Notes: a model not told the origin generated them from the sequence alone. Shown: positions 775 through 64,000, counted from the first letter of the stretch. The stretch is 64,000 bases of DNA from Eledone cirrhosa (GCA_964016885.1 OZ024742.1:354330001-354394000); one strand, 5' to 3'. A program made the numbers and translations.

Positions 775-2823
775 CTAGAGTTGGTGGTCCAAACAAGAAA
801 TATGTAAACCCTAGAAACTATAGAAGAATTAAATAAAGAAAATACCTGTGGTTTAATCCAATCTTCAATTCCTCTGTAAAAACTAGACTGCCTTCTACGT
901 TTTTTAAACTAATTGATAAGCACTTTCCTATATTACATAGATATCATAAAATCCTCAATAGAAAAACTAAAAATTCTCATGCTCTACGGCTGCAAATATA
1001 GAATCCCACATACGCAAGATCAACCACAGAAATACCTCTAGGGAAACCACCCCAATTATGCGCAACATAGCACCAAATTCTAAACATAAACACATCACCG
1101 TATCACAACCGCAGACGCATACGAGCGCGCCGCAGCAAAACCTTAACGGGCATGAATTCCAACCCACTTATAGCAGTGTACAAAACAGTAGTGTGGAAGC
1201 TGCACGGAAAAACAACTCAAACTGCAATTGTCACCTACCAGATAGGTGCCCATTGGCGAACAGGAGCCTTGAATCGAACCTAGTGTACATGTGTACGGTG
1301 AACTCGGGCAACTCCACTTGGCATTACATTGGCGCCACCGCGGGTACGTTTAAAAAAATGATGGTATGTGCACAGACATTCGATGACGAACCGTGCACTA
1401 ATAGGTTCTACAACCCTCGCCAAAAAAATCTGGGAACTTAAGGACAAAAACATTGACTACAATTTCAACTGGTTGATGTTGTCGTCCGCAAGGGCATATA
1501 GTGCTATTGTAGGCTCTGCGACCTTGAATTACTGTATATCCTTAGGAACGATAAAAGGCTACTCAACAACAACATAGAAAGGTCAATTTTCAGCAGACAC
1601 AGGATCGCTACTAAATTCACAAGTTTTAAGCCACCGTGATTCGAACCAACATAACTTAGCATTCAACATATGAAATCAGCACTCTCACACAGACAACCAC
1701 AGAACTATAATATTCTTTAAACAGCTTCTAGCCTCCTTAATTCTATACCACAGTAATGCCTGTAAATATCTTATCAACCCATAAATATATCTCTTCTCGG
1801 CTGCTGTCAACACCACCTCCTCACTTTGATTTTCAACAGATGAACTTAATTCTAAGTACATTATTTGACTACCATCACAGTCCTTGGAATATTTCCCTCC
1901 TCCTGTTGTTATAATGAACACCACAATGTATCCGTAATAGTATTCATCATGTTCTCTCTATATATACCTTGCTTTCTTAAACTCTGTATTACCTTATTGC
2001 CTATATTATTGTTGTGTTATTCATGCATGATATATTATTGGAGCTGTGAAAGGTAAACAACCCACATGATTCGAACCAACAATCCCTTCATCTAATATAG
2101 ACTCCTTAAATAATGAATCCGATTTACACCACATAAAAACTACCATCCTCACTAGAATGAAAATATTTTATCTGTCAGATAATAAATAAATCTTACGGTC
2201 ACACAAACCTACAGTAAAGTAAATGGTTCATTATTTCAAGCCCAGGTTTTCTCTACACTATATATAATATACCCCATGACAGCTTTTACATGTTAATATC
2301 ATATATCTGTTTCGTATCGGTTCGTTTTACATGCTTAAGTCATCAGTACACTCTATTTCTTACTTAGATTGATGTGATTATTTTAAATATTTACTATCTA
2401 TCTAATTTATTTGAGTATTGTTATTATTGTTCTGATTTAATGCCACTACTATATATAGATACCCCGCCTGTGTATATCCTTCATTCTCGCATGCTCTTAT
2501 GAATAGACTGGTTATAACAAAGTATTGGTGATCGATTGACGCAAAAACAGGTGGGTAGCGATTTCTAGACCTACCAGTTCAGATAAACAATTGTCTGCAA
2601 TGTGAATAAAGCCCTTATTGTATAGCAAACCATGTCACTCTTCTTTCTTGATTTATTATTACTCCAAGTGTAAACTACATAGAAATCACCGCGTACTCGC
2701 AGCATCACTTAGAAACGTCTTGTTGAGTCAAACTTACCCAAGCGTTAGTACTATCCACTACGCGGAGTAACCTAACTGGACTACATCTAAGTGGACTACC
2801 TATAACAATAATTTGTTATCCCG
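775..2823 (+). mobile_element. 5'-truncated, frameshifted Penelope-like element (linker + GIY-YIG + 3' UTR)
   Basis: Translates to LWFNPIF, CNCHLPDRCPL, LVYMCTV..YIGATAG, RHSM..TTLAKKIWELK. Colinear with 62280-64000; ends in (TA)n. Confidence 0.85.
2492..2599 (+). ncRNA. degenerate hammerhead ribozyme with long stem II
   Basis: CUUAUGA core (CCGAAGA in the copy near 63917), CUGGU...ACCAG stem II, UAAA in place of GAAA, palindromic CAAUUG, then UC. Confidence 0.4.
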
Positions 2824-3135
2824 TATATATATATATATATATATATATATATATATATATATATATATATATATATATATATATATATAAGTATGTATGT
2901 ATACGTACATACATATATGTGTACAGACGTACAGTAGCATGTATATATATATATATATATATATATATATATATATATACACATACAGGCACACATATAT
3001 ATATGCACGTATCAGTTTACCGAACATTTATTATAATGTTCGCTTTGTTCGTTTGTAAACAAACGAACAGCCTGATTTACGCCGTACAGAGTTTAGGCAA
3101 CCACGTCACCTTTTTGTTCAACACTGACACAAGAA

Positions 3136-3176
3136 CGATGTACTAGTTTCAAGCTTGTTAGCTATCGTCAGCACCG
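3136..3176 (-). ncRNA. minimal type I hammerhead ribozyme (intact core)
   Basis: CGGUG-CUGACGA-UAGC UAACAA GCUU-GAAA-CUAG-UA/CAUCG; stem I CGGUG:CAUCG; palindromic stem III ACUAGU. Confidence 0.85.
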
Positions 3177-3612
3177 TATACCTTTCTGCCAGATGGTTGA
3201 ACATCCGAAAGTATATACTTTCCTTATGAAAATTAACGGCTGAGCAGCCTAATTTGCATATCGAGTGAGTTCAGTCGGCCAGGCGCACCGAAAACGATAA
3301 ATGGAATAGAATGAAACGAAATTTCATTTCTCACTCTTAGTACGGCACTTACTTAAATTTAAGTATGTATGTATACGTACATACATATATGTATACAGAC
3401 GTACAGTAGCATGTATATATATTATATATATATATATATATATATATATATATATATATATATACATACAGGCACACATATATGTATGCACGTATCAGTT
3501 TACCGAACATTTATTATAATGTTCGCTTTGTTCGTTTGCAAACAAACGAACATCCTGATTTACGCCGTACAGTGTTTAGGCAACCACGTCAACTATCTGG
3601 CAGAAAGGTATA

Positions 3613-3653
3613 CGTTGCTGACGATAGCTAACAAGCTTCAAACTAGTACATCG
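3613..3653 (+). ncRNA. hammerhead ribozyme, mutated inverted copy
   Basis: Same motif as 3136-3176 but GAAA->CAAA and one stem I mismatch. Confidence 0.6.
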
Positions 3654-3699
3654 TTCCTGTGTCAGTGTTGAACAAAAAGGTGACGTGGTTTATTAGGTT

Positions 3700-61064: not shown

Positions 61065-61368
61065 CTGTTTCAACTTTTGGCACAAAGCCACCAAGTACCC
61101 CAGTGCGTTACTGGTACTTAATTTTATCGACCACGTAAGGATGAAAGCCAAAGTTAACCTCGGCGGAATTTGAACTCAGAACGTGTAGGGTCATAAGTAT
61201 ATGATGCAAAGCATGGTGTCTGATGCTCTATCGATGATGTAAATCCTCCGCCTTTAAAGAATATAACAATAATATAAATAATTGTTTCTACATTAGGCAC
61301 AAGGCCAGCAATTTCCCAGTGCATTACTGGTACTTTATTTTATCGACCCCGTAAGGATGAAAGGCAAA
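61065..61368 (-). mobile_element. two adjacent SINE copies (61065-61252, 61281-61368)
   Basis: Same family as 6087-6265. Confidence 0.8.
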
Positions 61369-61689
61369 ATTAACAATAATATAAATAATAGCAGAGAACA
61401 TGCATTAAGGTAAGGTAATTGTGTAGTGATAGCATACATATAGGTGTTATGTATTATAAGTAATACATGATGTATTCATTATAGGCAAAGGTATATATGC
61501 AAAAAGTATTATAAACAGTTTTATAAAGTTTATTTAGAAAACCTTAATATCTATAGTTGTGACGTGCGTAAGCAATAAGTATACAAACACCTTAATATAT
61601 TAATACACTCCTTGTAACTTCTTTATATATGTATATATGTATATATATATATATATATATATATATATATATATATATATATATATACA

Positions 61690-62145
61690 CACAAGTACAA
61701 TAACAAAAACACACATATTAACACACACTAGTGAACAAAGAGAGAATACAAAAACGCATACACTCAAACACGAACACACACACCAAGCAGGATACACACA
61801 CGCAAACATGTGCACAAACAGAGGCATAGATAAGACTAAATGAATAAATTAATTATTTAAATAAAAGAGGCGTAGGCATTACAATACAATGGGAGGAAAC
61901 ATAATAGTACCACTGATGATGGCACTGATGTGTGACGAAAGAACTTTGATAGACTATACATAATTTTATATCTGTATACATAACCGTTGTTCAATCAATG
62001 ATAAACATTGATTACCAGGTAAATTAAATATGGAGATATAAAATATACAGAAGCGAAAATCAACCCAAACCAAACAGTGAGTGTGTTCTGGTGTTATTTC
62101 TGGCAATATTATAACAATATGACTCTCCCAAAATTTAACAATATT
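61690..62145 (+). mobile_element. PLE 3' UTR fragment with HHR (61904-61957)
   Basis: Homologous to 16250-16706; CUGAUGA..GAC-GAAA-GAAC-UU/UGAUAGACUAU. Confidence 0.75.
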
Positions 62146-62279
62146 TGTTTCAAAACACGATTACATCTCAAAGACATTGCAAAACGTATATATATATATA
62201 TACTCAGCCGTCGGGGTCCTGACTCCTTTCCTACACACACACACCCCCACACACACCCCCACACACATATATATATATG

Positions 62280-64000
62280 TGTGACTAGACATAGGGTTAG
62301 ACATGTAACACCTAGAGTAAACGGCCAAAACACGAATAACGTAAACCCTAGAAACAATAGAAGAAACAGACAAAGAAAATACCTATGGTTCAACCCAATA
62401 TTCAACTCCTCTATAAAAACTAGACTGCCCTCTATATTCTTTAAACTAATAGATAAACACTTCCCTATCTCGCATAGATATCACAAAATACTCAATAGAT
62501 CTACTATAAAACTCTCTTTCTCAACAGAAGCTAACATAGAATCACACATACGCAAGATCAACCACAGAAATATCTCAAGTAAATCAATTGCACCTATACA
62601 TAAGCACAAACTCATCACAACATCACAACCACAAGCGCATACGAACGCGCAGCAGCAAAACCCCATTGGCCATATATCACAACCCACTTATAACAGGGTA
62701 CTAAATAGGAATGTAAAGGCTGCACAAAATAGCGCCTCAAACTGCAACTGTCACCTCCCAGATAGGTGCCCATTGGCGAATAGATGTCTCGATTCGAGCC
62801 TGGTGTACATGTGCACTGTCATCTCGGGTAACTCCACCTGGAATTACATAGGATCCACCGCGGGTTCTTTTAAGAAAAGATGGTATGTGCACAGGCACTC
62901 AATGAAAAACCGAGCACTTATGGGTTCCACCACCCTCGCCAGAAAAATATGGGAATTGAAGGACAGCAACGCTAGCTACACTATCAACTGGTCGAAGTTG
63001 TCGGCTGCTAAAACCTATAGTACAGGGATGTCCTATTGCAGGCTGTGTGATCTTGAGCTATTGTATATCCTTTGAAATGTTAAAAGGCTACTTAATAATA
63101 AGTTAGAAAGATCTATCTTCTGCAGACATAGAATAGCCACTAAATTCATAAGATTCAAACCTCCGTGAATCGAACCAACATAACATAGCTTTAAATTAGG
63201 ATACCTACTACCCACAGAAATATATTCATTAAGTATACTATTTCCTTCACAAGTCTATACCGCACAATTGTCTGTAAATACCTCATCTACCAACAATCTT
63301 ACTCCTTCTCAGCTGCTGCAATCATTTGATCCTAGATCCTAGTTTTTTCTCATTTCACTACTACAATGTTACTTTACCCTCTTTTTGCCATAATTACAAT
63401 TAGCAGGCTTTTCTCTTTGCATGTATGTATATTTTCGTACGAGTGTATATTGATGTGTATCTATGTGTCTATGTACACATATATGTGTGTATATATTTAT
63501 ATATATATATATATATATGTGTGTGTGTGTGTGTGTGTGTGTGTGTGTGCGCGTAGATATATGCGTATATTAATTCGTTAACCTCTGTATTAACTCTACA
63601 ACTATTGAGCTTTGACAGTGGTCCCACTCATGTATACTGTTGAAGATGAAGAGAAAGACTGTAAAAACTAGCTTATCTTTATAATTTAAAATTGATACAC
63701 ACTACGATACTTTTTGCCTTATGACAGCTGGTTTTCCCGCCGTAACATTAGATACATTATATACCCCCCACCTAAGTAATGTCAGGGTCTCCTTAAATAG
63801 TTTATTGATAGCATTGTTTTAATAGTTGTTGTTGATATTGTTCTAATTGAATGCCATAACTACTCCATATTTTCTTTACTTTTCTTGCCTGTGTATTTTC
63901 TTCATTCTCGCATGCTCCGAAGATCTGACTGGTTATAATTCTAAATTGGCGATCGAGTGACGCAAAATTAGGCGGATAGCGATCTCTAGACATACCAGCT
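62280..64000 (+). mobile_element. Penelope-like element (linker + GIY-YIG + UTR), runs off the window
   Basis: ORF to 63075: LWFNPIF, CNCHLPDRCPLANRC, LVYMC..YIGSTAG, CRLCDLE; same family as 775-2823. Confidence 0.9.

What the first reader, a model, noticed from the sequence alone, without database searches (positions are those of the whole stretch)
2492..64000. Window-wide PLE plus hammerhead ecosystem targeting (TA)n
Seen: about ten sequence-unrelated HHR-bearing families and at least six PLE remnants in 64 kb, almost all abutting (TA)n. Most HHRs have a different self-complementary stem III (ACUAGU, ACCGGU, ACGCGU, ACAAUUGU, ACGAUCGU, AGUACU). Known: PLEs carry minimal type I HHRs in their pLTRs, and the palindromic stem III is thought to support dimeric folding. 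Inference: PLE RT/GIY-YIG mobilises a diverse set of ribozyme-bearing non-autonomous RNAs into TA microsatellites and shapes much of this genome's non-coding DNA.
Basis: partly seen in the sequence, partly recalled or inferred. Interest (0 to 1): 0.8.

Follow-up and report, generated by a model that had tools for sequence, protein, structure and literature searches.

The report
Penelope retroelements with oversized hammerhead ribozymes
This stretch of animal DNA is crowded with broken Penelope-like jumping genes and short repeats carrying predicted self-cutting hammerhead RNAs whose tail ends mostly join TA microsatellites; that partnership is largely known, but several of these predicted ribozymes have an unusually long second arm.

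Summary
The window has seven Penelope-like (PLE) coding remnants: five Hydra-type, one Neptune-like, one unassigned, none intact. It has about 14 families with type I hammerhead (HHR) motifs. Eight families have a copy meeting a full descriptor; the rest are damaged or half motifs. Strict hits number 5, against 0.00-0.02 in shuffles. (TA)n lies on the 3' side: 27 of 31 cut sites within 260 nt (chance 0.24), and 0 of 22 SINE ends abut it. Corrections: five families are the PLEs' own terminal repeats, elements end downstream of the cut site, and cleavage, expression and trans-mobilisation are not shown. Not found in my searches: domain II lengths of 31, 52, 61, about 80 and 100 nt, against 10-25 nt in 54 of 55 Hydra HHRs from other animals. 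One such family is very abundant and has a fixed extra core base. A perfect 615-bp tandem array in (TA)n has no known ribozyme. Verdict: new variant of a known system.

The parts
769..2823 (+). Hydra-type PLE remnant 1a: broken EN region, long 3' UTR, damaged HHR (core 2496, domain II about 80 nt, stem III ACAAUUGU); 3' end joins (TA)n at 2824
2890..3594 (-). Non-coding partial tandem (unit about 480 bp) with intact HHR at 3171 (ACUAGU); 3' end at TA
3589..3690 (+). Inverted 5' copy of the same HHR family (core 3618, one core mismatch)
3691..5496 (-). Neptune-like GIY-YIG remnant with 3' UTR; HHR core at 3751 with unpaired stem I; TA at its truncated 5' end, not its 3' end
5547..5834 (.). Head-to-head palindromic element; right arm has an HHR with U3-A8 core (5730, ACCGGU); third copy at 52667-52853(-)
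13141..14411 (-). 526-bp partial tandem flanked by TA; only a CUGACGA half core seen; related copy 39423-39905(+)
15000..15114 (.). Short palindrome made almost only of a damaged HHR (cores 15053-, 15061+)
15184..15439 (.). Damaged HHR-like family (core CAGAAGA in both full copies); second copy 33180-33385(+)
15567..15733 (+). Diverged copy of the long-domain-II family F7 (stem III ACAAUUGU); ends at TA
15880..16707 (+). GIY-YIG PLE remnant (clade unassigned) followed by its terminal repeat with HHR at 16468 (AGAACU, weak stem I); other copies 37505-37790 and 61689-62186, inverted pieces 15757-15850 and 22637-22690
22002..22182 (.). Palindromic family showing only the 3' HHR half (19-nt stem III around a palindromic centre); also 26366-26449, 56168-56228, 56527-56726, 62203-62233
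22765..25209 (.). 311-bp retrozyme-like array, units 100% identical, 8 intact HHRs (ACGCGU) with a long extended stem I; orientation flips at 23849/23850; left end joins TA, right end runs into an N gap
25553..25924 (.). Palindromic element with a damaged HHR in each arm (25701-, 25776+; AGUACU); the two arms carry different defects
29366..29520 (+). Intact HHR at 29397 (AGAGCU), related to the 16468 family; no TA within 300 nt downstream
31488..31915 (.). Palindromic family F7: 8-nt core (31706-31713), 61-nt domain II, stem III ACAUUUGU; both outer ends at TA
34831..37464 (+). Hydra-type PLE remnant 2 with intact HHR at 37367 (31-nt domain II) and an inverted terminal copy at 34831-34944(-)
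39960..41165 (-). Hydra-type PLE remnant 4; no HHR recognised in its 3' UTR
41214..44848 (.). Hydra-type PLE remnant 3 (RT and EN on minus strand) with an 834-bp inverted arm that carries an intact HHR at 44665(+) (100-nt domain II, ACGAUCGU); both outer ends at TA
44870..52645 (.). 615-bp tandem array, 12.6 units with one mismatch in all, both ends in (TA)n; no HHR, no Rfam ribozyme, no ORF over 62 aa
56727..56953 (+). Non-coding element with intact HHR at 56750 (52-nt domain II, ACGAUUGU); ends at TA
62280..64000 (+). Hydra-type PLE remnant 1b (75% identical to 1a); HHR core at 63917 cut off by the window end

Best explanation
The window holds seven broken Penelope-like retroelements and about 14 hammerhead-motif families whose 3' ends mostly join TA repeats; the short non-coding families were likely copied there by the reverse transcriptase and GIY-YIG nuclease of intact PLEs elsewhere in the genome. 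Shown: remnants, motifs, polarity, and inverted and tandem layouts. From literature: Hydra, Naiad and Neptune PLEs prefer (TA)n, and a PLE protein nicks and extends both strands of AT-rich DNA, starting inside the RNA downstream of the HHR, without needing HHR cleavage. Inferred: the nuclease nicks (TA)n and reverse transcription starts roughly 15-260 nt 3' of the HHR cut site. Long RNAs give 5'-truncated remnants and solo terminal repeats. Short RNAs starting a few tens of bases before the core are copied whole and become independent families. Head-to-head pairs arise when both strands of the self-complementary TA target are primed, or when cDNA folds back. Perfect multimers come from rolling-circle copying of HHR-made circles or from later unequal crossover. 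In this lineage domain II has grown to 31-100 nt; it likely still closes the three-way junction, so these HHRs are predicted to be slow or protein-assisted.
For: Remnants and Hydra motifs. HHR excess over shuffles. 3' polarity of TA. Internal units of the 311-bp array run on without TA where the terminal unit meets TA, so TA is target rather than tail. For F7, run X1 gave 888 contigs: no difference reached 10% in the core, GAAAC or stem I; cover starts near 31673; three loose-end groups at 31831-31842 (19, 21 and 17 contigs) are TA-rich, the last a plain TA run; one contig switches strand at 31674. Inverted arms start 4-39 nt before the core in 7 of 7 cases measured (starts placed by hand). 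Literature: PMC8557442, PMC11167929, PMC4209133, bioRxiv 10.64898/2026.07.22.740005. Domain II baseline: 64 of 79 Hydra loci from marine metagenomes have a sense-strand HHR; 54 of 55 distinct motifs have 10-25 nt, and the exception is a 64-nt hit with a weak stem III far from the terminal repeat. All three Hydra families here with a recognised HHR have 31 nt or more. The two 80-nt copies fold alike; the 100-nt domain folds at z -4.0.
Against: No intact PLE in the window, and no non-coding family could be tied by sequence to a parent PLE. The Neptune-like remnant, the 29397 element and several arms do not end at TA. A Helitron-like element and the RTE LINE also lie close to TA. Six of seven long domains fold no better than shuffles (z -1.6 to +0.35). 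The 100-nt one is built of TA/TG/CA-rich sequence and is a single copy, so it may be a local expansion. F7 has an extra core base of a type reported to have low activity (PMC3088659) and an A-C mismatch closing stem II, so it may be dead; the RNAalifold consensus of its three arms did not give the HHR fold. The perfect arrays, one beside an N gap, could be partly assembly products.
Confidence: 0.65

Rival explanations
1. All short HHR families are only truncated terminal repeats of coding PLEs that lie outside the window; there are no independent non-autonomous RNAs.
For: Five families are contiguous with PLE coding remnants; 5' truncation leaving one terminal repeat is the known PLE pattern.
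Against: The 311-bp and about 480-bp units repeat head to tail with no coding sequence; F7 cover stops sharply near 31673 in X1 instead of running on upstream.
Confidence: 0.2
2. TA adjacency is not nuclease targeting: the elements carry or seed TA tails, or survive preferentially in TA-rich regions.
For: Several units contain short internal TA runs; the window has 80 TA runs.
Against: Internal tandem junctions lack TA; ends meet TA at different positions within one family; 0 of 22 SINE ends in the same window abut TA.
Confidence: 0.07
3. The palindromes and arrays are moved by another machine (RTE LINE, a DNA transposase acting on MITE-like inverted repeats, or Helitron), and the HHRs are passengers.
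For: A decayed RTE-type LINE and SINE copies are present; the palindromes look MITE-like; TA is the target of Tc1/mariner elements (recalled).
Against: Arms of one family differ in length and occur singly, in tandem and inverted; the same inverted layout is attached to PLE coding remnants at 34831-34944 and 43798-44848; no LINE-type tail was seen by eye.
Confidence: 0.08

Closest known systems
Hydra clade of Penelope-like elements (Craig et al. 2021, PMC8557442), including Hydra-1_Obim of Octopus bimaculoides
   Same: C-terminal GIY-YIG without CCHH, CxCx5C linker, CxxC and CxH motifs, HHR near the 3' end, (TA)n insertion, inverted 5'-truncated copies.
   Different: Listed Hydra HHRs have short domain II (longest about 26 nt by my reading of File S2); here 31, about 80 and 100 nt. 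The window's families are decayed and only 36-37% identical to each other in the EN region.
Non-LTR retrozymes of animals (PMC7229834; bioRxiv 10.64898/2026.07.22.740005)
   Same: Non-coding tandem units of about 300 bp, low GC (34%), one type I HHR per unit (311-bp array).
   Different: Insertion into (TA)n and an internal orientation flip were not found in the passages read; expression as circular RNA is not shown here; many relatives here are palindromes or monomers.
Minimal PLE hammerheads (Cervera and de la Pena 2014, PMC4209133)
   Same: Palindromic stem III, extreme family diversity within one genome, opposite-strand pairs 100-700 bp apart, U3-A8 core covariation.
   Different: Much longer domain II in five families; one abundant family with a fixed extra base after A6.
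Natural A6a-insertion hammerhead (Perreault et al. 2011, PMC3088659)
   Same: One extra nucleotide after A6 in the core; reported as low activity.
   Different: Here the variant is fixed in a very abundant animal repeat family with a 61-nt domain II.

Membership tests
Hydra-clade PLE | C-terminal GIY-YIG EN after RT in one ORF | tested here: met
   Remnant 3 has RT (43112-43786) then EN (42090-42776) on one strand, in broken frames
Hydra-clade PLE | CxCx5C linker and no CCHH motif | tested here: met
   C123, C125, C131 invariant in alignment A1 with three window ORFs; no CxxC inside the GIY-YIG core
Hydra-clade PLE | CxxC and CxH around the conserved E and N | tested here: met
Hydra-clade PLE | N-terminal RWK and DKT motifs | not testable with these tools
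   All window copies are 5'-truncated; the motifs are present in the homologues used
Hydra-clade PLE | Placement in an RT phylogeny with named Hydra references | not tested
   No tree was built; assignment rests on motifs and similarity
Hydra-clade PLE | HHR near the 3' end and (TA)n insertion | tested here: met
   HHR in 3 of 4 families (one only as damaged copies); 3' ends at TA for remnants 1a, 2 and 3, and 37 nt away for 4
Neptune-clade PLE (5231-5483) | CCHH GIY-YIG with an upstream zinc-finger linker | tested here: inconclusive
   47% identity to an RT-GIY-YIG protein, P0004; the linker is decayed; the clade label is recalled from motif likeness
Type I hammerhead ribozyme | CUGANGA and GAAA core, NUH site, three helices closed by stem I | tested here: met
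   6 families with a canonical core and 2 with published core variants; 6 more only damaged or half
Type I hammerhead ribozyme | Self-cleavage as monomer or dimer | not testable with these tools
   Needs an in vitro assay or raw RNA reads
Non-LTR retrozyme (311-bp array) | Non-coding short tandem with a complete HHR in two or more consecutive units | tested here: met
   8 HHRs in identical units; no long ORF
Non-LTR retrozyme (311-bp array) | Transcribed and accumulating as circular RNA | not testable with these tools
   No RNA run was available to lay (see Tried and rejected)
Non-LTR retrozyme (615-bp array) | HHR in each unit | tested here: not met
   No descriptor hit, no Rfam ribozyme at E<=10; not filed as a retrozyme

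The most novel reading that the evidence does not exclude
This lineage has evolved a class of active hammerheads with a large structured domain II (50-100 nt) that serves as a binding or folding platform for the PLE protein. PLEs here amplify any RNA with such a landing signal into (TA)n, including variant-core ribozymes and a 615-nt RNA that carries an undescribed self-cleaving or circularising fold. The 311-nt retrozyme also spreads between species.
Probability: 0.2. Interest if true: 0.68.

Novelty: new variant of a known kind. Interest (0 to 1): 0.42.

Why it matters
The role of the PLE hammerhead is an open question: in the one reconstituted system it is dispensable for insertion. A genome with many parallel families, some with intact cores, some with fixed core variants and one array with no ribozyme, all entering the same target, allows a direct test of whether cleavage matters for spread or only for making tandem multimers. 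Long domain II variants escape the usual descriptors, so genomic HHR counts may be too low, and many 'unknown' or SINE/MITE-labelled repeats in TA-rich invertebrate genomes may be PLE-driven.

Tried and rejected
Chance motifs: rejected. Whole-genome test: no genome held. Whole-window Rfam scan: the rows shown were microsatellite-driven miRNA matches, all below gathering score. No tRNA in the window. Expression: no RNA holder listed for the 311-bp unit; this says nothing either way. Runs X4 and X5 gave no contig on F7 and X6 one short piece; no proof of absence. Clade of the 15906 GIY-YIG: no homologue found, no similarity to P0004, only a 15% GIY-YIG lead in the Atlas. Whole-motif MFE folds mostly did not beat shuffles: 1 of 12 below z -2. 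The 615-bp unit: no HHR, Rfam ribozyme or long ORF; a core-like word on its minus strand lacks stems I and III (read). CUGACGG/CUGACGA words at 22018 and 26380 are reverse complements of the stem III end and were not counted as cores. Low-scoring relaxed hits (9936, 12496, 14529, 21285, 21352, 35809, 54708, 59350) were treated as background; shuffles give about one hit at score 10. Earlier scan notes for this genome or for three look-alike sequences: none. Lunse et al. (PMC5785218) could not be read and may describe further variants. The species was not established: octopus is my recalled impression from the SINE and TA content, not a tool result.
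Full report
Setting. The window is AT-rich eukaryotic DNA with 80 TA runs, a 200-N gap at 25210-25409, SINE copies and a decayed RTE-type LINE. No genome is held, so all tests are on the window, on fetched relatives and on public runs. It looks like octopus to me, but that is recall and was not tested.

PLE remnants. A search with the 62314-63072 ORF returned three full-length RT-EN proteins and 5,300 relatives in the representative library. tblastn with P0001-P0004 located five remnants of this type and one matching P0004. 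A seventh GIY-YIG fragment lies at 15906. The five carry the CxCx5C linker and lack CCHH; two were checked for and show CxxC and CxH. These features define the Hydra clade in PMC8557442 (section 11). No copy is intact.

Hammerheads. My descriptor found six families with a canonical core and three helices and two more with core variants. The U3-A8 variant is described in PMC4209133 and the insertion after A6 in PMC3088659. With arrays collapsed, 5 strict hits stood against means of 0.02 and 0.00 in 250 plus 250 shuffles. The variant hits alone are weak (17 and 4 of 300 shuffles), but the U3-A8 core recurs in 2 of 3 arms of its family and the extra-base core is fixed in run X1. Six further families are damaged or half motifs, judged by eye. 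The count of about 14 therefore mixes 8 firm and 6 softer cases.

TA targeting. (TA)>=5 lies within 260 nt downstream of 5 of 6 canonical intact cut sites and 27 of 31 candidates, against 0.24 at random. For two intact sites the nearest run is a short internal one; the terminal runs are also within 260 nt. Arm ends give 28 of 39 at the 3' end, 9 of 39 at the 5' end and 0 of 22 for SINE ends; two arms whose 3' ends are hidden were left out. This second test uses limits I drew. The independent check is: among 888 contigs of run X1 laid on F7, the loose ends at 31831-31842 are TA-rich. Against: one Helitron-like and one LINE control also lie within 40 nt of TA, and some arms do not end at TA. 19 of 33 long TA arrays are abutted by a 3' end.

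Anatomy. Elements end 15-260 nt downstream of the cut site, so cleavage does not define the junction. This fits internal initiation and the dispensable HHR in the Anolis Poseidon system (PMC11167929). Head-to-head arms begin 4-39 nt before the core in 7 measured cases. The 311-bp array is a textbook retrozyme layout with identical units and a long stem I extension; its orientation flips inside that extension. Five HHR families adjoin coding remnants and are terminal repeats of PLEs; about nine have no coding link in the window.

What departs from the known. Of 79 Hydra loci from marine metagenomes (the best 80 of 314 confirmed stretches), 64 have a sense-strand HHR, and 54 of 55 distinct motifs have a 10-25 nt domain II. 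The published Hydra list agrees. Here the lengths are 31, 52, 61, about 80 and 100 nt. The 61-nt and 80-nt domains are family traits: three arms plus X1 with no indel at 10%, and two copies with the same fold. The 52- and 100-nt ones are single copies. Only the 100-nt domain folds better than shuffles, and it is low-complexity. So the length is real and function is open. The 615-bp array sits in (TA)n like the others but has no known ribozyme; its minus strand folds at z -4.1 over 20 shuffles, its plus strand at z -2.1.

Literature and what I saw. PMC8557442: passages, section 11, supplement searches and part 2 of 59. PMC4209133: parts 1-2 of 4. PMC11167929: parts 1-2 of 4. bioRxiv 10.64898/2026.07.22.740005: part 1 of 5, passages and Discussion; its supplements were not seen and may list similar families. 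PMC7229834, PMC13282606, PMC3088659 and PMC6765202: passages only. Lunse et al.: not held, known only through the review. TA targeting of retrozymes, long domain II in PLE HHRs and a cephalopod HHR survey were not found in searches, of which I saw listings and abstract starts. Subscription papers and Repbase are outside this library.

Verdict. The elements work like, and by motif are, Hydra-type and other PLEs with their terminal repeats and retrozyme-like derivatives. The new parts are the oversized domain II, the fixed core variant in an abundant family, the (TA)n polarity of the non-coding families and the ribozyme-less array. Novelty: new variant of a known kind. Interest 0.42.

Noticed in passing
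window 44870-52645: Perfect 615-bp tandem array with both ends in (TA)n and no known ribozyme; the minus strand is unusually well folded. Candidate ribozyme-less or new-ribozyme PLE passenger.
   Followed up: partly
window 23852-24162; runs X1-X6: The 311-bp unit is held at 71-86% of 28 sampled words by runs under four organism labels, while the F7 family was laid in number only in X1.
   Followed up: no
window 26684-29078: Two 486-bp direct repeats (94.7% identical) around 1.4 kb without a long ORF, with a primer-binding-site-like word next to one repeat on the minus strand: likely a non-autonomous LTR element.
   Followed up: no
window 57770-60620: Decayed RTE-type LINE (endonuclease and RT remnants) ending in a short GAT repeat.
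   Followed up: partly
window 1-92, 6079-6266, 7893-8092, 19094-19238, 19762-19895, 31032-31200, 61046-61374: An abundant SINE-like family; used as control, none abuts (TA)n.
   Followed up: partly
window 22002-22182, 26366-26449, 56168-56228, 56527-56726: A family whose six aligned arms all lack the CUGANGA half; in two palindromes the centre falls in the predicted stem II, suggesting cDNA fold-back at that hairpin. Its stem III centre varies between two palindromic words.
   Followed up: partly
window 3171(-) and 23868(+): Two otherwise unrelated families share a 14-nt domain II with the same six-base loop and different paired stems.
   Followed up: no
window 32088-32940: Element with internal repeats that looks Helitron-derived (recalled likeness); one end lies 4 nt from TA.
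   Followed up: no
window 11146-11408 and 11701-11808: 21-bp and 27-bp minisatellites away from TA runs.
   Followed up: no
L001-L079: Many near-complete Hydra-type PLEs with HHR-bearing terminal repeats lie in marine metagenome contigs; L074 also has inverted HHR copies next to TA.
   Followed up: partly
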